From a virus (Duplodnaviria > Heunggongvirae > Uroviricota > Caudoviricetes): a DNA stretch of 64,000 nt. Numbering within the stretch: position 1 is the stretch's first letter; each line of letters starts with the position of its first letter. A program made the position numbers and the translations under genes. Below the pieces are notes generated by a model that was not told the DNA's origin, did not search any database, and worked only from the letters and a program-made list of their open reading frames with translations. The stretch lies in IMG/VR virus record IMGVR_UViG_2875697941_000001. One strand, given 5' to 3'. Positions 8,956-15,978 of the stretch are shown in pieces.

Positions 8956-9505
8956 TGACCAGTCCCGTCAGGCAAAGCTGGCGTTCTTTTTCACGGCGAA
9001 TCTTTAAACCTCGCAGGGGCACGCCGTTACTGTTCACAAAATCAGGGAGATGGTTACACATATTCACCCATTCCCCTTTCTGCGCCCACTTGTGGATGGA
9101 CGTTTCGACTCGCATGCCTCGCGCTTTGCTGTAGTAGGTCCGTAAGCTATTGCATCCCATATTGAATGCCGCGCTTGTCATTGCACTAAAGGCATTATCG
9201 GGCATGTCTTTGCCCCGGAAGTGCTGATTAATACAGCGTTCAGCGATCAGGATATTCTTTTCCCAATCAGCGGCGATTTGCTGGTCGGTTTTTCGCACAC
9301 CCGGCGTTACCCCGTGTGTATTACCGATCCCGTCAGTCCATACCCCCGCCGGGCACATGTATGGATCACGTCGGCAACCTTCAGCGTTACCAATCAGCTC
9401 AAGCCCCGCCTGGTTGGTTCGCACATTGCCATTACCCATTACGATGGTAATCATCACCGCGATAGCGCAAATTGCACCGCCTCCTGCGGCTGTTTTTCCC
9501 TTCAT
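8948..9505 (-). CDS. lyz: SAR endolysin (T4-lysozyme fold), P1 Lyz
   Basis: 185 aa; N-terminal Gly/Ala-rich signal-anchor-release segment (GGGAICAIAVMITIVMG); catalytic E-x8-D/C-x5-T motif; sequence recalled as matching P1 Lyz. Confidence 0.9.
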   Translation of the reverse strand: MKGKTAAGGGAICAIAVMITIVMGNGNVRTNQAGLELIGNAEGCRRDPYMCPAGVWTDGIGNTHGVTPGVRKTDQQIAADWEKNILIAERCINQHFRGKDMPDNAFSAMTSAAFNMGCNSLRTYYSKARGMRVETSIHKWAQKGEWVNMCNHLPDFVNSNGVPLRGLKIRREKERQLCLTGLVNE

Positions 9506-9637
9506 AAAGACCTCATAAGCGAATTTTTACGCTCCAGGACAAACACCCATTCACAGCCAATACCGACTGACTCGATCCCTTTAGAAGGCACAGGATAATG
9601 CAAATCACTTGTTAGCTACGTTTCAAAGATATACATT

Positions 9638-9654
9638 ATTGCTCTAATCATTTT
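9638..9654 (+). promoter_or_regulatory. C1 repressor operator-like site upstream of ssb
   Basis: ATTGCTCTAATCATTTT, 15/17 match to recalled P1 C1 operator consensus ATTGCTCTAATAAATTT. Confidence 0.5.
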
Positions 9655-9673
9655 ATTTTATTAGGTAAGATAA

Positions 9674-10162
9674 GTGGCACAACGCGGTGTAAACAAAGTC
9701 ATCCTGATTGGTACCCTGGGGCAAGACCCGGAGATCAGGTATATACCAAATGGCGGAGCGGTCGGAAGACTAAGCATCGCAACAAATGAATCATGGCGCG
9801 ACAAGCAAACGGGCCAACAGAAAGAGCAAACAGAATGGCATAGAGTCGTTTTGTTCGGGAAACTTGCTGAAATTGCGAGTGAGTATTTACGAAAAGGTTC
9901 TCAGGTCTACATCGAAGGGAAACTTAAAACCCGTAAGTGGACAGATGACGCCGGTGTAGAACGTTACACGACGGAAATTATCGTCAGCCAGGGCGGCACC
10001 ATGCAAATGATCGGCGCTCGCCGTGACGATTCACAGTCCTCAAATGGCTGGGGGCAATCGAACCAACCTCAAAACCACCAGCAATACAGTGGTGGCGGTA
10101 AACCTCAGAGCAACGCCAATAACGAACCTCCAATGGACTTTGACGACGATATTCCGTTTTAG
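9674..10162 (+). CDS. ssb: Single-stranded DNA-binding protein
   Basis: 162 aa; GTG start; N-terminus [23 protein letters not shown] parallels E. coli SSB; Gly/Gln-rich linker; acidic tail DFDDDIPF. Confidence 0.95.
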
Positions 10163-10364
10163 AGTTTATGAGTAAAAAACGACTGAAAGAAAAGCGGTGG
10201 TCAAGACGCCGACAAAAGCACGAACTCGCAAACAAACGCCAAAGTTGGCAATGGCACGCGCTTTTAACGAATAGAACACCCCGAGATATTGCTTTCGCTG
10301 GTGGGAAAACATTCCTAACCAACCTGAAGGCGCAATACATCAGTTTTTAAGCAGAGAAAAGACT

Positions 10365-11159
10365 ATGACAGCACAAAATACTAAAACCATTCAATACCGC
10401 CTGCGTAATGGCCAGAGTGTAGAAGTGACCATCAATAATGATGGTGTACCTGGCGAAAAGGTTTCTATCTCTGATCTGGCTATCGAAAAAACCATCATGT
10501 GCCACCTTGGCTTTACTGAAGAAGTGAGCAAAAAGCATGGTGTAGCTATCTGGCGCACAATGGATACTGGCATGCGCAGATTCATTACTGCTCGTACCCC
10601 TGGTATGACCATGATGGACCTCATACAGATTGCGCCGCTGTTTGAGTGTGAACCTTTGGATGTATTCAGCAATCCAGCTATCTGCCAGCAGTTATATGGT
10701 GAGATGAAACTCGCGGTTACCCCCATTGTGCTGCATGAAGGATCGCTTGCTGGCGTATGGAAAGTAGAGCGAATTTCAAGCTACATGCCATTCCACATCC
10801 ATGTCAACGGCGTAATCGCAGGTGAAAATCAACCTGTTTCCGTTATAAAGTCAGACCTCAATCGCGCAATTCTTGAAGCAAGTTGTCGAGTTATCGGCCT
10901 GGGCAAACAGTCTTATGTTTCCTTCCCGGCTGGTCCTGAAGGCCCGGCAGAAATTCTGATTATGGATGCTGATCTGCTCTGGCAAATACAGTTTCTGATT
11001 GGCAAAAGCATCATCCGTGCTGAAGAACTCGATCAGTACATTACCTGCACGATGACGGATGAAGTCAAAAGTGTGGCTATAGCCAATGCCCGGAACCTGT
11101 GTCGTGCTGCATTAACAGAACCGCAAGAAAACATTCCAGAAGAAACAGAAAGTGACTAA
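10365..11159 (+). CDS. Hypothetical protein, 264 aa
   Basis: ORF track; no recognisable motif; immediately upstream of the HipA-like gene. Confidence 0.5.
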   Translation: MTAQNTKTIQYRLRNGQSVEVTINNDGVPGEKVSISDLAIEKTIMCHLGFTEEVSKKHGVAIWRTMDTGMRRFITARTPGMTMMDLIQIAPLFECEPLDVFSNPAICQQLYGEMKLAVTPIVLHEGSLAGVWKVERISSYMPFHIHVNGVIAGENQPVSVIKSDLNRAILEASCRVIGLGKQSYVSFPAGPEGPAEILIMDADLLWQIQFLIGKSIIRAEELDQYITCTMTDEVKSVAIANARNLCRAALTEPQENIPEETESD

Positions 11160-11160
11160 T

Positions 11161-11190
11161 AAAAACCCCGTCAGTTGGCGGGGAACTCCA
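11161..11190. terminator. Hairpin downstream of ORF 10365-11159
   Basis: A-run then CCCCG-loop-CGGGG stem; T-run only on the minus strand, so it may terminate minus-strand transcripts. Confidence 0.35.
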
Positions 11191-11356
11191 CGTCAAATGG
11201 CCAATTGTTATGTCAGCTAGCAGTTAAAGCGCCTAGTCATCATCTTTTAAAGAAGTCTTTTTAACTTACCTAAATTAGTGACACCTCCCGTTTTGCTTGC
11301 TATTGTACGCATTCATGAATCTATTCATTAATCTATTCACAATAGTAATTAAAACT

Positions 11357-12661
11357 ATGGCTATACATGCAACAACAATCCGTAATTTGCTCAATCAAGG
11401 TCCTATGACACCAAGACAATTGGTTGAAAGACTAGGTGTTAGCCAACCAACGATATCTAGAGCATTAAGAGATCTTGGTGATGAAATCGTTAGGATCGGA
11501 AATGGAAGATCTATTCAATATGCTTTACGAGACTCTTTTAGAGGATTCGAATCAGTCCCCATTTATCGTATAACTGAAGAGGGGTGTATTTGCGTTCTTG
11601 GTACTCTCATTCCGGTGAGGCCAGAAGGCTATGTTATGGTTGAGGAAGGGAAAAATAACAGGCATAGCGATGGGTTACCTTGGTGGTTATTTGATATGCG
11701 TCCACAAGGCTTCCTTGGAAGAGCATATGCATCAGCATATGCTCTTGAACTTAACCTTCCCTCAAATCCAGAGCAATGGTCAGATACTGACGTGATCAAA
11801 GCCTTACTTAAGCATGGGCATGATGTTGTTGGTAATTTGTTAATTGGAGAGCAAGCACGCACGCATTTTTTAGAGATGCAGCCTCCTGTTCCTGTTAATC
11901 GTGAAAGTGAATATCCTGTATTAGCTTTAGCTGCTGGTGAAGGTGATGTGCCCGGTTCATCTGCTGGAGGTGAACAACCCAAATTTTGTACTTTCACAGA
12001 GCGTGGACATGTATTAGTGAAATTCTCTGCGCCTAACGACACCCCTATAAGTGAGCGTTGGAGAGATCTCTTGTTTGCTGAACATCTCGCATTAAAAGTT
12101 CTGGGGGTAGAAACAGAAGTTTTTGATTATAACGGTCAGAGATTCTTGGAAATTCCCCGATTTGATCGTGTTGGTCAACTAGGTCGGGTAGGTGTATTCT
12201 CACTTCGTGCACTTGATGCAGAATTTGTTGGGAATGCAAGAGCAACATGGCCCTTGCTGGTTAAAGAGTTGGTAAAAAATAAGTGCGTCCATCCTGATGC
12301 GATTATTATAGCAACAAGGCTATGGTCTTTTGGTTTGCTAATAGGCAATACCGATATGCATAATGGTAACCTATCGTTTATTAGTAGCCACGGACGCCCA
12401 TATCATATTGCTCCAGCCTATGACATGTTACCTATGGGTTTTGCTCCACGCTCTGGGGGAGCAATATCTAATGAGCTTAGAAAAACAGCACTACCAGACT
12501 TTGTAAGTCGAAAAATATGGGATGAATCTCTTGAATTGGCTGAAAAATTTTATGCATTGGCCTGTGAGTCCGACAAATTCTCAGCTAACTTTACTCCATG
12601 TTTAGAAGCGCTACGCATCCACCTAGATGATTGTAAGATACGCATAGCCCGCCTGGCATAA
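11357..12661 (+). CDS. HipA-family Ser/Thr kinase with fused N-terminal HTH (YjjJ/HipH-like)
   Basis: HTH RQLVERLGVSQPTISRAL; HipA motifs GGEQPKF, GNTDMHNGNLSF, APAYDML. Start uncertain (TTG 11297, ATG 11315 or ATG 11357). AT-rich relative to flanks. Confidence 0.6.
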   Translation: MAIHATTIRNLLNQGPMTPRQLVERLGVSQPTISRALRDLGDEIVRIGNGRSIQYALRDSFRGFESVPIYRITEEGCICVLGTLIPVRPEGYVMVEEGKNNRHSDGLPWWLFDMRPQGFLGRAYASAYALELNLPSNPEQWSDTDVIKALLKHGHDVVGNLLIGEQARTHFLEMQPPVPVNRESEYPVLALAAGEGDVPGSSAGGEQPKFCTFTERGHVLVKFSAPNDTPISERWRDLLFAEHLALKVLGVETEVFDYNGQRFLEIPRFDRVGQLGRVGVFSLRALDAEFVGNARATWPLLVKELVKNKCVHPDAIIIATRLWSFGLLIGNTDMHNGNLSFISSHGRPYHIAPAYDMLPMGFAPRSGGAISNELRKTALPDFVSRKIWDESLELAEKFYALACESDKFSANFTPCLEALRIHLDDCKIRIARLA

Positions 12662-12664
12662 ACA

Positions 12665-12695
12665 ACAAATCCCGCCGATTGGCGGGATTTCTTCA
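12665..12695. terminator. Bidirectional terminator between the HipA-like gene and the dar operon end
   Basis: Hairpin AAATCCCGCC-GATT-GGCGGGATTT followed by T-rich tract. Confidence 0.6.
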
Positions 12696-13001
12696 ATATA
12701 CGATCTGGTCTGCATGATCACCAAAATCATCGTCGTCGTCCTCATCGCCACCATCTACTGCTGGCCAATCAACAAACCAGCCAGCGTAAAGATGCAGCGT
12801 TCGGAGAACATCACTTGCGGGAGCATCAAGGGTGTTAACGAATCCCATATAGCTATTGGGATTTGCCCCAGCTATGGCTTCAGCGATCATGTCCTCGGTA
12901 ATGTCACCGGAGATAATGCTTAAACGCCCGGAAACTTCTTCATTATCATCAAATTCGATAATGGCATCTCCGCCTAATGGCGCTGCGATTTTAATCTGCA
13001 T
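12693..13001 (-). CDS. Strongly acidic small protein, last gene of the dar operon
   Basis: 102 aa, about 25 Asp/Glu versus 5 basic residues, DGGDEDDDDDFGD near the C-terminus; overlaps the ddrB-like stop. Confidence 0.45.
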   Translation of the reverse strand: MQIKIAAPLGGDAIIEFDDNEEVSGRLSIISGDITEDMIAEAIAGANPNSYMGFVNTLDAPASDVLRTLHLYAGWFVDWPAVDGGDEDDDDDFGDHADQIVY

Positions 13002-15978
13002 TATTTAGCTCCTTTGCCACACCTAATAACAGTTCCAGCAATCCGTCACCATTCATCAGTGATGCGGCAGCGGCCTCTTTGTCATGATACAACTGAAGAG
13101 CCATAGAGAATACTTCCGTTGCTGACGTTTTGGAAATAGTCGGTGATTTCTGCCGAATTTTCCCGGTGTTACTTACTGAGGCTGGCGGGTATACCTTCGC
13201 CATATAAATATTACTCAATCGAGATCTGAAGCACCATTCAGGCTTGCCACGCCCACCGATATTAACGAAAGATGGCTTATCCCCTTCAACATTGGCCTTC
13301 AGGAATGACCGGGCTTTCTCTAACAAACCAGGGTTACTGTACTCAAGATGATGACCCAGCTCGTGCCACAGTGCACTTGCATTTTCATCGTTCAAATTGA
13401 CAGCAACAACACCATTAAGATTTGCATATGCCCTTCCCTGGTGGTGAACCACCTTTGATAAGGTCGATATTTTCCCGCCGGTCAGGCGATAAATATCAGC
13501 AAGTTCCTTGCGCAGGTCTATCCCACCACTCTGTCCAGCGCGGGCTTCTTCCACTTCTTCCGTGATAAAAGAGTCGGCCCACTCAAGAGCTTTTTCTTCA
13601 GATACGGATGAGTTGGCTATCGCACTATTCATGGCAGATAACACTTTCTCGTGGACCGAACCCATACTTCGCTGATTCATTTGCCAGCGTGTCTGCGGGT
13701 TATATGAGAATCGCTTAAGTAGTTGGTCAAGATGCTCAAGTTCTTCTTCGCTGACATACTTTTTAGCCTCACCAATAATGCCGGGGAGAATATTGCCGTT
13801 AGGATTAAACGCTCGCGAAAGGAAGAGTTTCAGCGCCCCCATGCCCTCCGATGCTTCAATATCACCAATAACACGGTTAACAATGGCCGCACTCTTCGGA
13901 TTAGCATCCGCCAACGCTCTGGCTACGATTTGCAGGGACGATACGACCTCACGCTGCATATCAGTCCTGATCTCATCAATAAACTCTGGCGTTATGCCGT
14001 GCTCTTTAAGGATATCCCTGCCTTCCGCCGTTACCCCATCGATATCACCGACATGTTTATTAACCTGACTTTGCAATGCCTTAAATGCCTTCAGAATTCC
14101 ACGGGCATCATCAGCTTTACTAACGGCCTTCCTGAATGCTGGCAAGAAGTCAGAGTTAACCTCATTTTGTTGATCGGCCCACTGAATGGAGGCTTCTTTC
14201 ATCTCGTCCAGAGTCAGATCACCCAACGCGGTATGGTCTGTGAATATGAGCGACAACCTCTGAACCATTTCTGCCAATGGTGATGCCGAATGCGCCGCGC
14301 TAAGGAATGCTTTCACCCTGGTTGGGCGAATGGAAAACCAGTCAATAGCTGGTGGCATATCTCCGTTTTTTATCGCCTGCGCTATCTCGTCAAAGCCATC
14401 GCGCCCAAGGGAGGATGCGTGATTTAACAAGCCGCGAAGTAACGAATTGCTGATACCGAATAATCGGCACCATTTTTTCACGTCGGCAACAGGCATTCGA
14501 ACAAAATGCGCAAGCACTTGTACAAGCTGTTCATCCTGGGGATCTGTGCGGGAAAGCAGCCTGATCAGATGAATAATGTCTTTGATGCCGGATGCCCGAT
14601 GTAATAGCAAACTGGTATACGGAGCAACACCGTTGTAACTACCGCCGGAAACGGACTCGAAAAGACCGCCGGATATCCCTTGCATGCCTTCGTTTTCCAG
14701 TTCCTGAGACACCTGGCGAAGGATATCCTGTAACGACACATCACCACCGCCAAACATATCCCCCAGCGCCTGGCCCTGGTGCTGTAACTCATCATTGATA
14801 CGTTGAGCCATCAATTTAAAGGCGGTGGCCATACGCTTCGCGCTACGGTTATTCGCGACGATGAACAACGCGAGCGCTTTCACTTCCGGGGCTGTTTCGC
14901 TGAACATATCCCCCTGAGCAATAACATCGATAATATGTTGGTCTGACTCCTTCGATTGCCTTACCAGGTCTACCGCATCTTTCAATGCCGCCAGCGCCTT
15001 TTTATCGAGACTATCCGCTGTCTCAATACCATCAACAATAGTTGTCACAGCCTGCTTGTGCGCTTCTCCTGATAAAGCCTGCATCTGGACAAAATCATTG
15101 GCTGCCGCATTAAGCGCCGTCAGAACATTACGCATATCCGGATCAGGTTCTTCTGCAACCATCCTTACCAGGCGCGCATCCTTATATGCCTTGGCAAAGA
15201 TCGCGTTTTGTATACGGTCTACAAGTTGCCGTGTTGGTCGCCCATCTTCCGTTACAAGGCCAGCAGCCTGTGTGGCACCAACTTGCGTCATGAATCCGCG
15301 AATAAACGCGTCATTACTGCGGCTAAGCAGATCTCCGCTTTCTGATGGGTTAAACAGCGTCATCATCGCCGGAGTTATGCTGTCAGCATCAACAAAAGCC
15401 TTTTCACTGGCTGCCATTTCCTGAAGATCAGAAATATTTGAGTCCTTGGCAAACTGAACGCGGTCAACCTTAGTTAACCGGCGGCGCACCAGTACCGGAG
15501 CCGCCATTGATTCAACCTTTTCAGGTCGTATGCCGAATTCGGTCGCATGATCAATCAGGTACTCACGATACCGATCCGCATTGCCGTCCTGATAGGCTTT
15601 GATGATCCCCATGGTCCGTCCATTACCTGACTCAACGGCATTGTCCTCACCAATTATCGGCGCGCCATGGCTGGATAAACCGGAATCGGTAAGCTGGGCA
15701 GGACGCAAATCCTTGGATATCTGGTTGACCTGAAGAAGACTGGATGCGCGGGTCCGGTCGCGCGGCTGAAGTTCCTGGGGATAGTCAGGGTTAATTTTCC
15801 CGTCCAGAGTATTGGATACCAAAAGAGCTGAGGCATCGACGATATCAAACGCTGTTTTTACCTCGTCTCCCTTCGCTGTCACCACATACGAAACCCGCCC
15901 GTAATTGGGCAGGTTTTTTAGCAGCTCGATCAGCGTTTCTATGCTGGTGGCCATTACCACCTGATCGCTTAAGCTCAT
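12991..15978 (-). CDS. ddrB: DdrB-like antirestriction/capsid-associated protein, 995 aa
   Basis: Size and position downstream of darA/ddrA as recalled for P1; contains an HELGHH (HExxH) motif. Confidence 0.55.
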   Translation of the reverse strand: MSLSDQVVMATSIETLIELLKNLPNYGRVSYVVTAKGDEVKTAFDIVDASALLVSNTLDGKINPDYPQELQPRDRTRASSLLQVNQISKDLRPAQLTDSGLSSHGAPIIGEDNAVESGNGRTMGIIKAYQDGNADRYREYLIDHATEFGIRPEKVESMAAPVLVRRRLTKVDRVQFAKDSNISDLQEMAASEKAFVDADSITPAMMTLFNPSESGDLLSRSNDAFIRGFMTQVGATQAAGLVTEDGRPTRQLVDRIQNAIFAKAYKDARLVRMVAEEPDPDMRNVLTALNAAANDFVQMQALSGEAHKQAVTTIVDGIETADSLDKKALAALKDAVDLVRQSKESDQHIIDVIAQGDMFSETAPEVKALALFIVANNRSAKRMATAFKLMAQRINDELQHQGQALGDMFGGGDVSLQDILRQVSQELENEGMQGISGGLFESVSGGSYNGVAPYTSLLLHRASGIKDIIHLIRLLSRTDPQDEQLVQVLAHFVRMPVADVKKWCRLFGISNSLLRGLLNHASSLGRDGFDEIAQAIKNGDMPPAIDWFSIRPTRVKAFLSAAHSASPLAEMVQRLSLIFTDHTALGDLTLDEMKEASIQWADQQNEVNSDFLPAFRKAVSKADDARGILKAFKALQSQVNKHVGDIDGVTAEGRDILKEHGITPEFIDEIRTDMQREVVSSLQIVARALADANPKSAAIVNRVIGDIEASEGMGALKLFLSRAFNPNGNILPGIIGEAKKYVSEEELEHLDQLLKRFSYNPQTRWQMNQRSMGSVHEKVLSAMNSAIANSSVSEEKALEWADSFITEEVEEARAGQSGGIDLRKELADIYRLTGGKISTLSKVVHHQGRAYANLNGVVAVNLNDENASALWHELGHHLEYSNPGLLEKARSFLKANVEGDKPSFVNIGGRGKPEWCFRSRLSNIYMAKVYPPASVSNTGKIRQKSPTISKTSATEVFSMALQLYHDKEAAAASLMNGDGLLELLLGVAKELNNAD

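What the first reader, a model, noticed from the sequence alone, without database searches (positions are those of the whole stretch)
10365..12661. HipA-family kinase with fused HTH (YjjJ/HipH-like) plus unknown 264-aa gene as AT-rich cargo between ssb and the dar operon
Seen: the 11357-12661 ORF combines an N-terminal HTH (RQLVERLGVSQPTISRAL) with HipA kinase motifs (GGEQPKF, GNTDMHNGNLSF, APAYDML). No small HipB-like gene is adjacent, the region is AT-richer than its flanks, and hairpin terminators bracket it. Established: HipA kinases are growth-arresting toxins and HTH-HipA fusions such as E. coli YjjJ exist. Inference: a stand-alone toxin or abortive-infection or plasmid-stabilisation module; the upstream 264-aa ORF may be a partner or antidote. 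In the recalled P1 map this slot holds IS1/hxr, so this looks like variable cargo.
Basis: partly seen in the sequence, partly recalled or inferred. Interest (0 to 1): 0.65.

Follow-up and report, generated by a model that had tools for sequence, protein, structure and literature searches.

The report
HipH kinase cassette on P1-like phage-plasmid
A minority lineage of P1-like phage-plasmids has picked up a complete, self-contained copy of a growth-arresting HTH-fused HipA-type protein kinase (HipH/YjjJ) in a known variable slot; the gene family is known, but its presence on a phage and its role there have not been studied.

Summary
The window is a P1-like phage-plasmid.

**The kinase gene.** ORF 11357-12661 is an intact HipH/YjjJ-type HTH-HipA kinase.
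- It scores 534 bits against the NCBIfam equivalog (cut-off 401).
- The catalytic Asp, Asn and Asp and the Gly-loop serines are intact.
- The AF2 model matches only HipA, HipT and CtkA structures.

**The cassette.** The gene lies in an AT-rich cassette of about 1.48 kb, between two copies of the isaA/hxr terminator hairpin. P1 has IS1+isaB at this position.
- About 6% of P1-like plasmids carry it; none of 50,697 phage records does.
- All alleles examined share the same junctions, which points to one acquisition. dN/dS is about 0.2.
- The protein is 35% identical to E. coli's own HipH and at most 72% identical to any other relative.

- The 264-aa ORF is P1 IsaA, a backbone gene. It is neither cargo nor a partner of the kinase.
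- hxr is still present.

**New point.** Three 12-bp CTATTCA direct repeats sit between the -10 box and the ATG. The same array occurs across the family (59 of 82 loci, including K-12 hipH). It is probably the operator for the protein's own HTH domain.

**Role.** The role on the phage-plasmid is untested. My best reading is a self-repressed kinase "moron", a self-contained accessory gene with its own promoter.

The parts
9638..9654 (+). C1 repressor operator upstream of ssb (Ossb). It is context only, and is the only C1-operator-like site near the locus.
   Evidence: Matches the operator consensus I used (ATTGCTCTAATAAATTT, from my own knowledge of P1) with 2 mismatches. There are 5 sites in the window against 0.31 expected, and none lies near yjjJ. 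P1 annotates Ossb at the equivalent place.
9674..10162 (+). ssb (P1 backbone; context)
   Evidence: Pfam SSB, E 3.6e-40. Collinear with P1 ssb.
10365..11159 (+). isaA (P1 backbone gene of unknown function). It is not part of the cargo.
   Evidence: phrog_2326, E 9e-149. Collinear with P1 isaA up to window 11133. Present in relatives that lack yjjJ. The family is restricted to P1-like elements, with 18 hits. No Pfam, PDB or PADLOC match. The AF2 model is unusable, pLDDT 41.
11166..11183 (.). Left hairpin. It is a diverged copy (80% identity) of the isaA/hxr intergenic terminator hairpin and marks the left edge of the insert.
   Evidence: Repeat family D2. Fold energy -13.3 kcal/mol. Scored as a terminator only on the - strand; there is no U-tract on the + strand. 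Homology to the empty-site relative L003 runs up to 11182.
11183..12658 (+). Inserted cassette relative to 'empty-site' P1-like plasmids, in which isaA lies directly next to hxr. It is about 1.48 kb and 41.7% GC.
   Evidence: BLAST against L003: window 9000-11182 and 12659-14000 both abut the same 26-nt hairpin stretch of L003. Against P1, homology breaks at 11133 and resumes at 12695. GC content.
11278..11306 (+). Sigma-70-like promoter of the cassette: GTGACA, 17 nt, TG-TATTGT (extended -10).
   Evidence: Consensus scan. Taken on its own the scan is not above chance. However, a GTGAC/GATGACA box and a TAnAAT-type box sit at the same positions upstream of the repeat array in chromosomal homologues. 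The function is inferred.
11309..11344 (+). Three tandem 12-bp direct repeats (gcATTCAtgaat CTATTCAttaat CTATTCAcaata), followed by a degenerate fourth unit at 11345-11356. This is the candidate operator for the HipH wHTH domain.
   Evidence: It is the only such array in the 64-kb window. At least 3 ATTCA at exact 12-nt spacing occur upstream of the start codon in 59 of 82 family loci, including K-12 hipH, against 52 of 20,000 control windows. The consensus is CTATTCA-h-n-n-A-T, and the last in-register ATTCA ends 5 nt before the ATG in 53 of the 73 loci that have an in-register chain. As RNA the region has no stable fold, z -0.5.
11357..12661 (+). hipH/yjjJ: 434-aa winged-HTH plus HipA-type Ser/Thr kinase. 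The HTH is at about residues 4-60 (nt 11366-11536). The Gly-rich loop SSAGGEQPK is residues 201-209 (nt 11957-11983). Catalytic D333, H335 and N338 are at nt 12353-12370. The Mg-binding D356 is at nt 12422-12424.
   Evidence: The start at ATG 11357 is supported by the colinear N-termini of all homologues.
12667..12690 (.). Right hairpin: the bidirectional terminator shared by yjjJ (+) and hxr/dar operon (-). It is identical to the hairpin of empty-site relatives.
12693..13001 (-). hxr (P1 backbone, last gene of the ddrB-hxr transcription unit). It is retained and is not a HipB homologue.
   Evidence: Collinear with P1 hxr. phrog_2292. No alignment with HipB.

Best explanation
**What it is.** A complete, single-gene hipH (yjjJ) unit, made of promoter, operator-like repeat array, CDS and terminator. 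One lineage of P1-like phage-plasmids captured it once, into the variable slot between isaA and hxr.

**How it most likely works.** I expect it to work as chromosomal HipH does.
1. The N-terminal winged-HTH binds the three 12-bp CTATTCA direct repeats that lie between the -10 box and the start codon. This holds expression low. The step is inferred.
2. The leader has no Shine-Dalgarno sequence, which would add weak translation.
3. The C-terminal HipA-fold Ser/Thr kinase has a complete active site. When it accumulates or is activated it phosphorylates host proteins and arrests growth. For E. coli K-12 HipH the reported substrates are ribosomal protein L31 and CsrA, and over-expression is toxic (PMC9948734).

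**Expression on the phage-plasmid.** The cassette carries its own sigma-70-type promoter and has no C1 operator. It is therefore most likely expressed at a low level in the plasmid-prophage state, as a moron.

**Benefit to the element.** The benefit is most plausibly a conditional growth arrest, either abortive infection against competing phages or stress tolerance of the lysogen. That last step is conjecture.

IsaA and Hxr are backbone neighbours, not partners.
For: **Identity (shown)**
- NCBIfam YjjJ equivalog, 533.6 bits against a cut-off of 401, full length. Pfam HipA_C plus HTH_5/MarR_2.
- 35% identity over the full length to K-12 HipH, E 6e-90.
- D333, H335, N338, D356 and the S201/S202 Gly-loop are invariant in the alignment with HipA and HipH.
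- The AF2 model (pLDDT 74.5) has its top 23 PDB hits all in HipA, HipT or CtkA.

**Cassette and single capture (shown)**
- Junctions against P1 and against empty-site relatives.
- Junctions are identical in alleles with dS of about 0.05, and dN/dS is 0.17-0.20.
- All 30 plasmid copies are intact.
- The exact protein is indexed in 1,264 blocks of the collection. The 8 places shown all have the same ssb-isaA-yjjJ-hxr-ddrB context.

**Solitary gene (shown)**
- No IsaA or Hxr homologue and no conserved neighbour at chromosomal homologues. This agrees with the description of HipH as monocistronic in PMC8262856.

**Autoregulatory array (shown as conservation; function inferred)**
-.
- The SQPTxSR segment of the HTH is invariant in the clade and is SQATFSR in K-12.

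**Independence from C1 (inferred)**
- The nearest C1-operator-like site is Ossb at 9638.

**Precedent for the conjectured role**
- A HipA-family kinase system, DS-6/HipAD, has been validated as anti-phage defence (PMC13092281).
- The closest relatives sit beside integrases, Fic, BrxR, AbiTii, hok or type I R-M genes.
- The slot is a recognised variable region of P1-like elements (PMC9603915).
Against: - No experiment exists for this protein. It is only 35% identical to the K-12 HipH that was characterised, so its substrates may differ.
- The biochemistry of HipH toxicity is disputed. One study reports DNase activity that depends on the HTH domain, with c-di-GMP acting as antidote (PMC11452175).
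- The promoter call is a consensus match. The scan found no more such sites than in shuffled sequence.
- Winged-HTH proteins of the MarR/ArsR type usually bind palindromes, not direct repeats.
- The fixed distance of the array from the ATG could point to a role at the mRNA level instead.
- PADLOC gives no significant defence-family hit.
- Of 150 neighbours of 22 species-representative homologues, most are ordinary metabolic or regulatory genes. Guilt by association for defence therefore holds only for the nearest relatives.
- The left hairpin lacks a U-tract on the + strand, so read-through from the C1-controlled ssb operon, meaning lytic-phase expression, cannot be excluded.
Confidence: 0.6

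Rival explanations
1. Anti-phage abortive infection or superinfection exclusion. The lysogen-expressed HipH senses infection by another phage and shuts down the cell by phosphorylation, which protects the clonal population that carries the phage-plasmid.
For: - HipA-family kinases can defend: DS-6/HipAD is validated (PMC13092281), and the idea was proposed for Hip kinases in PMC8262856.
- P1-like elements often carry abortive-infection-type defence cargo (bioRxiv 10.1101/2025.09.12.675607).
- The nearest relatives lie next to AbiTii, Fic, BrxR, type I R-M genes and integrases.
- The cassette has its own promoter and no C1 operator.
- Purifying selection, dN/dS about 0.2.
Against: - No significant PADLOC hit.
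- No defence enrichment around the wider family.
- No phage in 50,697 records carries a HipH homologue.
- No sensor or partner gene is present.
- No data exist.
Confidence: 0.25
2. Host-physiology modulator or tolerance factor. Low-level HipH in lysogens re-tunes translation and carbon metabolism (L31, CsrA) or produces dormant, antibiotic- or stress-tolerant subpopulations. It may also cross-talk with the resident chromosomal hipH through the shared CTATTCA operator.
For: - K-12 HipH phosphorylates L31 and CsrA and affects cell division and ribosome assembly (PMC9948734).
- HipH is linked to persisters in biofilms (PMC11452175).
- The same repeat array lies upstream of K-12 hipH, so cross-regulation is conceivable.
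- Carriers come from clinical, livestock and wastewater E. coli.
Against: - Gratani et al. found no increase in antibiotic tolerance from YjjJ (PMC9948734).
- Identity to K-12 HipH is only 35%.
- The benefit to the phage-plasmid is indirect.
Confidence: 0.25
3. Lytic-phase host-takeover kinase, analogous to T7 gp0.7. The gene would be transcribed by read-through from the C1-controlled ssb-isaA operon early after induction or infection, and would phosphorylate host machinery or counter host defences.
For: - It lies directly downstream of the C1-regulated ssb operon.
- The left hairpin has no U-tract on the + strand.
- The neighbourhood has a counter-defence flavour. The dar antirestriction genes are adjacent, and some relatives carry a Tad2-like gene between ssb and isaA.
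Against: - The cassette keeps the native promoter and repeat array of chromosomal homologues.
- No other phage carries HipH.
- P1 relatives do without it.
Confidence: 0.1
4. A two-gene toxin-antidote module (IsaA as partner, the first reader's idea) or a plasmid-addiction (post-segregational killing) module.
For: - The two genes are adjacent and on the same strand.
- hipBA on plasmids can stabilise them (PMC11487325, abstract as listed).
Against: - IsaA is a P1 backbone gene, present in most relatives without yjjJ.
- A hairpin separates the genes.
- No IsaA homologue lies near 80 chromosomal homologues, and they share no conserved neighbour of any kind.
- No labile antitoxin is encoded.
- P1-like elements already carry phd-doc (PMC10879196).
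Confidence: 0.04
5. The toxic activity is not the kinase but an HTH-dependent DNase that c-di-GMP restrains, as reported for E. coli HipH.
For: - PMC11452175 reports that the HTH is needed for toxicity, that deleting the kinase motif leaves the protein toxic, and that c-di-GMP binds it.
- The HTH domain and overall architecture are conserved here.
Against: - Kinase-dead mutations diminish toxicity in PMC9948734.
- The kinase catalytic residues are invariant across the clade, which argues that kinase activity is under selection.
- No nuclease motif was detected.
Confidence: 0.1

Closest known systems
E. coli K-12 HipH (YjjJ), clade X of the Hip kinase tree (Gerdes et al. 2021, PMC8262856; Gratani et al. 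2022, PMC9948734)
   Same: - The architecture is the same: N-terminal HTH of about 100 aa plus a HipA-type kinase core with Gly-rich loop, catalytic motif and Mg-binding motif.
- Both are monocistronic with no antitoxin gene.
- Both have the same CTATTCA 12-bp repeat array directly upstream of the start codon.
- It passes the NCBIfam YjjJ equivalog cut-off.
   Different: - Only 35% identical, and 434 aa against 443 aa.
- It belongs to a distinct sub-clade whose nearest members (at most 72% identity) are in Pantoea, Erwinia, Enterobacter, Serratia and Proteus, with further members in Betaproteobacteria.
- It is carried on a phage-plasmid rather than a chromosome.
- It is very AT-rich at third codon positions, 28.7% against 54.7%.
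HipBA type II toxin-antitoxin (E. coli HipA/HipB)
   Same: The kinase fold and catalytic residues match: D309/H311/N314/D332 of HipA correspond to D333/H335/N338/D356 here, and the autophosphorylation-loop serine is present.
   Different: - Only 24% identity in the multiple alignment.
- No hipB.
- No Pfam HipA_N-type domain was detected. An HTH domain occupies the N-terminus instead.
- Regulation is presumably in cis.
DS-6 / HipAD HipA-family kinase anti-phage system (DefensePredictor, PMC13092281)
   Same: A HipA-family kinase carried as accessory DNA. In DS-6 the kinase activity is needed for defence.
   Different: - DS-6 is a two-protein system, with a DUF3037/DUF1829 partner. Here there is a single gene with a fused HTH.
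Accessory genes in P1 variable region 2 (isaA-IS1-isaB; PMC9603915)
   Same: - Same slot between ssb/isaA and hxr.
- Low GC.
- Alternative contents in different relatives: nothing, IS1+isaB, a 356-aa unknown ORF, or the P7 nmpC porin. Some relatives also have a Tad2-like gene upstream of isaA.
   Different: The content is a HipH kinase. None of the papers I could search mentions it on P1-like elements.
Phage T7 gp0.7 Ser/Thr kinase (from my own knowledge, not tested here)
   Same: A phage-encoded protein kinase that acts on host proteins.
   Different: - Unrelated fold and family.
- gp0.7 is an early lytic gene of a virulent phage. The HipH cassette carries its own autoregulatory region from chromosomal homologues.

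Membership tests
HipH/YjjJ (HTH-fused HipA-homologous kinases) | Passes the curated family model over its full length | tested here: met
   NCBIfam NF007297 equivalog: 533.6 bits against a cut-off of 401, residues 4-434 on profile positions 3-446.
HipH/YjjJ (HTH-fused HipA-homologous kinases) | N-terminal helix-turn-helix domain of about 100 aa preceding the kinase core | tested here: met
   Pfam HTH_5 (E 6.7e-07) and MarR_2 (E 1.5e-06) at residues 4-42. The AF2 model shows three helices plus a beta-wing at residues 2-58, pLDDT 77-90.
HipH/YjjJ (HTH-fused HipA-homologous kinases) | HipA-type kinase core with Gly-rich loop, catalytic motif and Mg-binding motif intact | tested here: met
   Pfam HipA_C, E 2.9e-15. 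S201/S202-AGGEQPK, D333-x-H335-xx-N338 and D356 are invariant with HipA and HipH. The Foldseek top 23 hits are all HipA, HipT or CtkA.
HipH/YjjJ (HTH-fused HipA-homologous kinases) | Monocistronic, with no linked antitoxin gene | tested here: met
   Hairpins lie on both sides. There are no candidate small ORFs with homologues. No neighbour is conserved among 56 homologue loci.
HipH/YjjJ (HTH-fused HipA-homologous kinases) | Ser/Thr kinase activity and growth inhibition on over-expression | not testable with these tools
   Shown only for K-12 HipH (PMC9948734), which is 35% identical.
Canonical hipBA type II toxin-antitoxin | Adjacent hipB (Xre/Cro-type HTH antitoxin) in the same operon | tested here: not met
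   No such ORF. The convergent hxr shows no similarity to HipB and is a P1 backbone gene.
Canonical hipBA type II toxin-antitoxin | HipA N-terminal subdomain (Pfam HipA_N type) | tested here: not met
   Only HipA_C was detected by Pfam. phmmer against the PDB reaches HipT but not HipA.
Known anti-phage defence systems (PADLOC-DB v2) | Significant match to a defence-system protein model | tested here: not met
   Only marginal hits: WYL at E 2e-4 on the HTH, and PDC-M03A at E 1e-3 on about 30 residues of the catalytic motif.
P1 (Punavirus) core genome | Present in all or most P1-like elements | tested here: not met
   yjjJ is in 29-30 of about 510 P1-like plasmids, in 0 of 20 P1-like phage records and in 0 of 50,697 phages. 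By contrast isaA, ssb and hxr are backbone genes.
Phage 'moron' (autonomous accessory transcription unit) | Own promoter and terminator, atypical base composition, and absence from close relatives at the same site | tested here: met
   A promoter-like site that is conserved in homologues, a terminator at 12667-12690, GC of 41.7% against 48.6%, and empty-site relatives. Promoter activity itself was not tested.

The most novel reading that the evidence does not exclude
A temperate phage-plasmid uses a solitary, self-repressed HTH-HipA kinase as a one-gene conditional growth-arrest device, for abortive infection or exclusion of competitors. Because it shares the CTATTCA operator with the host's own hipH, it would also plug into, or override, the resident HipH circuit. 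This would be the first phage-borne HipH, the first physiological role for the enigmatic antitoxin-less HipH family, and a demonstration of an operator made of 12-bp direct repeats read by the kinase's own HTH.
Probability: 0.2. Interest if true: 0.65.

Novelty: new member of a known kind. Interest (0 to 1): 0.42.

Why it matters
HipH/YjjJ is the least understood branch of the HipA kinase family.
- It has no antitoxin gene.
- Its biochemistry is disputed: a kinase acting on L31 and CsrA, or a DNase restrained by c-di-GMP.
- It has no accepted physiological role.

**Why this copy is useful.** A divergent copy has been captured intact, with its native control region, by a widespread E. coli phage-plasmid and kept under purifying selection. 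This gives a clean natural test bed, because isogenic P1-like lysogens with and without the cassette already exist in nature.

**The repeat array.** The conserved 12-bp CTATTCA array gives a concrete, directly testable answer to an open question: how is a toxin without an antitoxin kept in check? The proposed answer is cis-autorepression by its own HTH.

**For phage-plasmid biology.** The finding adds a toxin-type kinase to the cargo list of P1 variable region 2.

**Limits.** The gene is already correctly named by automatic annotation in about 30 deposited plasmids, so the identification itself is not new.

Tried and rejected
1. **IsaA as partner or antidote: rejected.** It is a backbone gene. 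It is absent from all 80 chromosomal homologue loci, and a hairpin separates it from yjjJ.
2. **Function of IsaA: nothing found.** No Pfam, NCBIfam or PADLOC hit even at E of 10 or below. A PDB profile search gave only noise. The family is confined to P1-like elements. The AF2 model had pLDDT 41, so I ran no fold search on it.
3. **Hxr as a HipB-like antidote: rejected.** No similarity and no PDB relative.
4. **Recent transfer from the E. coli chromosome: rejected.** There is no DNA-level match to chromosomal yjjJ, and protein identity is 35%.
5. **Donor: not identified.** The best relatives are 70-72% identical and GC-rich, whereas the cassette has GC3 of 28.7%.
6. **A 5'-UTR RNA element: no support.** No Rfam hit and no stable fold.
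7. **Further CTATTCA arrays in the phage genome, as possible trans targets: none** in the 64-kb window.
8. **Defence-island enrichment around the family: not supported.** This was tested on 150 neighbours from 22 loci. Only the nearest relatives sit in mobile or defence contexts.
9. **P1 isaB as the 3' remnant of the 356-aa ORF in vB_EcoM-813R1: rejected.** The two proteins are unrelated.
10. **Mobility genes or inverted repeats flanking the insert: none found**. The insertion mechanism remains unexplained, apart from the duplicated hairpin.


Full report
**1. What is at the coordinates**

The window is a P1-like (Punavirus) phage-plasmid.
- The 3.5 kb around the finding is 96-97% identical to phage P1 over ssb, isaA and hxr/ddrB.
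- It is 100% identical to E. coli plasmids such as pEC258-2.

Both ORFs exist as described.

The 434-aa ORF (ATG 11357 to stop 12661) has these properties:
- Pfam gives HipA_C (E 2.9e-15) and N-terminal HTH_5/MarR_2.
- It passes the NCBIfam equivalog model for YjjJ, 533.6 bits against a cut-off of 401 over the full length.
- An alignment with E. coli HipA and HipH shows every catalytic feature intact. These are the Gly-rich loop with two serines (S201, S202), K222, D333/H335/N338 (HipA D309/H311/N314) and D356 (HipA D332).
- An AlphaFold2 model (mean pLDDT 74.5) has its top 23 PDB matches exclusively in HipA, HipT and CtkA.
- No solved HipH structure was found by sequence search.

The family alignment supports ATG 11357 as the start. 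The PHROG profile (phrog_30447) is 14 residues longer at the N-terminus. That would correspond to an upstream ATG lying inside the repeat array.

**2. The neighbours are P1 backbone genes, not cargo**

- The 264-aa ORF is IsaA. It matches phrog_2326 and is collinear with P1 isaA up to window 11133.
- The 102-aa ORF on the minus strand at 12693-13001 is hxr, followed by ddrB.
P1 has the end of isaA, IS1 and isaB where this window has the kinase, and hxr is retained.
- IsaA remains of unknown function. It has no Pfam, NCBIfam, PADLOC or PDB match. Its family is confined to P1-like elements. Its structure model is unusable.

**3. Anatomy of the insert**

Some relatives have isaA directly next to hxr (for example NZ_CP023896, L003). 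Against these, homology runs to 11182 and resumes at 12659, and both edges abut the same 26-nt stretch of the relative, which is the intergenic terminator hairpin. The window therefore has two copies of that hairpin:
- a diverged left copy at 11166-11183;
- an identical right copy at 12667-12690.

About 1.48 kb lies between them. Both hairpins fold stably. The left one has no U-tract on the + strand, so it is scored as a terminator only for the minus strand.

The insert is 41.7% GC against 48.6% for the window, and the gene has GC3 of only 28.7%. I found no transposase, integrase or terminal inverted repeats.

**4. Distribution and history**

| Collection | Result |
|---|---|
| About 510 P1-like plasmids in PLSDB | 29 carry the full segment (30 by tblastn; one is split by the record origin) |
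| 5,426 complete E. coli genomes | 25 carry it |
| 50,697 deposited phage genomes | No HipH homologue at E 1e-5 or better |
| IMG/VR | Six P1-type contigs with the gene, plus eight contigs with 38-70% homologues that I did not resolve further |

- The exact protein is indexed in 1,264 blocks of the assembly collection. The eight places shown all have the same context.
- Alleles that differ by dS of about 0.05 share identical junctions, and dN/dS is 0.17-0.20. This indicates one capture followed by maintenance under purifying selection.
- The slot is the published "variable region 2" of P1-like elements (PMC9603915).

An evenly spaced sample of 60 of the 510 plasmids gave:

| Slot content | Records in sample |
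|---|---|
| yjjJ | 4 |
| Empty | 7 |
| Empty, plus a Tad2-like (DUF2829) gene between ssb and isaA | 8 |
| An insert of about 1.1 kb, as in vB_EcoM-813R1 where it is an unrelated 356-aa ORF | 13 |
| P7-type porin gene | 9 |
| Sharing only ssb | 9 |

The 356-aa ORF is not related to P1 IsaB.

**5. Relationship to other HipH proteins**

- The protein is only 35% identical to E. coli K-12 HipH, and there is no DNA-level match to chromosomal yjjJ.
- Its closest relatives outside P1-like elements are 67-72% identical. They come from Pantoea, Erwinia, Enterobacter, Serratia, Gibbsiella, Proteus and unnamed contigs. The clade extends at 50-65% identity into Betaproteobacteria.
- No donor was identified.
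- None of 80 chromosomal loci has an IsaA or Hxr homologue within 6 kb. No gene family is a conserved neighbour; the maximum is 4 of 56 loci, all closely related genera. This matches the published picture of HipH as a monocistronic, antitoxin-less Hip kinase (PMC8262856).

**6. A conserved cis-element**

Immediately upstream of the start codon the window has three tandem 12-bp units (gcATTCAtgaat CTATTCAttaat CTATTCAcaata, 11309-11344) and a degenerate fourth.
- The same array is present upstream of homologues whose flanking DNA is otherwise unrelated.
- It is also present upstream of K-12 hipH.
- Across 82 loci, 59 have at least three ATTCA cores at exactly 12-nt spacing within 80 nt of the start. 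Among 20,000 control windows from the same loci, 52 do.
- The unit consensus is C-T-A-T-T-C-A-h-n-n-A-T. Among the 73 loci that have an in-register chain, the last in-register core ends exactly 5 nt before the ATG in 53.
- A GTGAC(A)-type box and a TAnAAT-type box precede the array in most loci. In the window these are GTGACA, 17 nt, TG-TATTGT at 11278-11306.
- There is no Shine-Dalgarno sequence.
- As RNA the region is unstructured (z -0.5), and Rfam has nothing there.
- It is the only such array in the 64-kb window.

The recognition-helix region of the HTH (SQPTxSR) is invariant in the clade and nearly the same in K-12. The simplest reading is that the array is the operator through which HipH represses itself. 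That would supply the missing control for an antitoxin-less toxin. I found no description of this element in the papers I could search. Its function is inferred, not shown.

**7. How it probably works on the phage-plasmid**

The nearest C1-operator-like site is Ossb at 9638-9654. The cassette brings its own promoter-like site and ends at a good terminator. It therefore has the anatomy of a moron expressed in the plasmid-prophage state at a low, self-limited level.

Published work on K-12 HipH bears on the effector step:
- Over-expression is toxic.
- It phosphorylates L31, CsrA and itself.
- Toxicity is diminished by mutations in the Mg- and ATP-binding motifs and is rescued by HipB (PMC9948734).
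- A conflicting study assigns toxicity to an HTH-dependent DNase that c-di-GMP restrains (PMC11452175).

Which of these applies to a 35%-identical paralogue is unknown. The invariance of the kinase catalytic residues argues that kinase activity is what selection maintains.

**8. What the element gains: conjecture, with the alternatives weighed**

*Abortive infection or exclusion.* This has precedent. DS-6/HipAD is a validated HipA-family kinase defence system (PMC13092281), and P1-like elements often carry abortive-infection-type defence cargo. The nearest relatives of this protein also sit in suggestive places:
- next to an integrase, Fic, AlpA and BrxR (L092);
- next to a type I R-M system (L102);
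- next to a P2-like prophage integrase, AbiTii and hok genes (L104);
- next to an integrase (L113).

Against it, PADLOC gives no significant hit. A scan of 150 neighbours from 22 species-representative loci found mostly ordinary metabolic and regulatory genes, two integrases and only a few defence-model hits.

*Host-physiology or tolerance role, and lytic-phase host-takeover role.* The second would involve read-through from Pssb past the U-less left hairpin, in a neighbourhood that holds the dar antirestriction genes and, in some relatives, a Tad2-like gene. Both remain open.

*Plasmid addiction and an IsaA-HipH pair.* Both are unlikely.

**9. Verdict**

- The family assignment is correct, and NCBI's annotation pipeline already makes it on the deposited plasmids.
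- The "cargo" claim is right for the kinase and wrong for the 264-aa gene.
- This is a new member of a known kind. It is a divergent HipH carried by a phage-plasmid, which none of the papers I could search discusses.
- Interest is moderate. The value lies in a natural with/without system for an enigmatic toxin family, and in a concrete, testable autoregulation model.

Noticed in passing
window 11309-11356; L006:9727-9769 (K-12 hipH upstream); L007-L086 upstream of each match: A family-wide array of 2-4 tandem 12-bp direct repeats with an invariant ATTCA core (consensus CTATTCA-h-n-n-A-T). It lies between a -10-like box and the hipH start codon. Among the 73 loci with an in-register chain, it ends 5 nt before the ATG in 53. 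It is conserved from E. coli to Betaproteobacteria although the flanking DNA is unrelated, and there is no Shine-Dalgarno sequence. I did not find it described in the papers I could search.
   Followed up: yes
L005:2093-2938 (Salmonella phage SJ46) and about 8 of 60 sampled P1-like plasmids: Some P1-like elements carry an extra 281-aa gene between ssb and isaA whose C-terminus is a Tad2-like (Thoeris anti-defence 2, DUF2829) domain, E 2.6e-22. The ssb-to-hxr stretch, next to the dar antirestriction operon, may therefore be a counter-defence/accessory zone.
   Followed up: partly
L091:2047-3117 (phage vB_EcoM-813R1) and about 13 of 60 sampled plasmids: The commonest occupant of the isaA-hxr slot is a 356-aa ORF that overlaps the isaA stop codon. 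It has no Pfam or PADLOC match and is unrelated to P1 IsaB. Its function is unknown.
   Followed up: partly
E. coli genome search with L006:9700-11101: The K-12-type chromosomal hipH matches in 4,576 of 5,426 complete E. coli genomes, but only 1,347 cover at least 80% of the gene at megablast sensitivity. The resident hipH seems to be truncated or strongly divergent in most lineages.
   Followed up: no
L092 (Logan contig SRR29693975_7309), L104 (Pantoea sp. B65), L102 (Gibbsiella), L113 (IMG/VR): The nearest relatives of the P1-borne HipH (70-72% identity) lie in mobile or defence-type neighbourhoods. One is directly beside a tyrosine integrase with Fic, AlpA, YfjJ and BrxR. One is beside a P2-like prophage CI/integrase with AbiTii, Tlde1 and two hok/gef genes. 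One is beside a type I R-M operon. One is beside an integrase in a predicted viral contig.
   Followed up: partly
L111-L118 (IMG/VR contigs): Eight predicted viral contigs carry HipH homologues of 38-70% identity, several of them at contig ends. L118 is mid-contig near a DnaB-like helicase. I did not resolve whether these are true phage genes or host flanks of prophage calls.
   Followed up: partly
window 11297-11356: Start-codon ambiguity. The mechanical ORF starts at TTG 11297, and the PHROG profile (phrog_30447, 448 positions) is 14 residues longer than the family-supported start at ATG 11357. Those upstream codons lie inside the promoter and repeat array, so they are probably mis-annotation.
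   Followed up: yes
window 11357-12661: GC3 of the phage-borne hipH is 28.7%. This is far below its closest relatives (48-59%) and close to that of Proteus cibi (32%). It hints at a low-GC donor or long residence in AT-rich mobile DNA.
   Followed up: partly
L090 (Enterobacter cloacae IncC plasmid pCC32) and Aeromonas plasmids: HipH homologues also occur on non-phage plasmids. One (69.5% identity) lies next to silA on a 251-kb conjugative IncC plasmid between IS elements, and five Aeromonas plasmids carry copies of 54-56% identity. The family is repeatedly mobilised.
   Followed up: no
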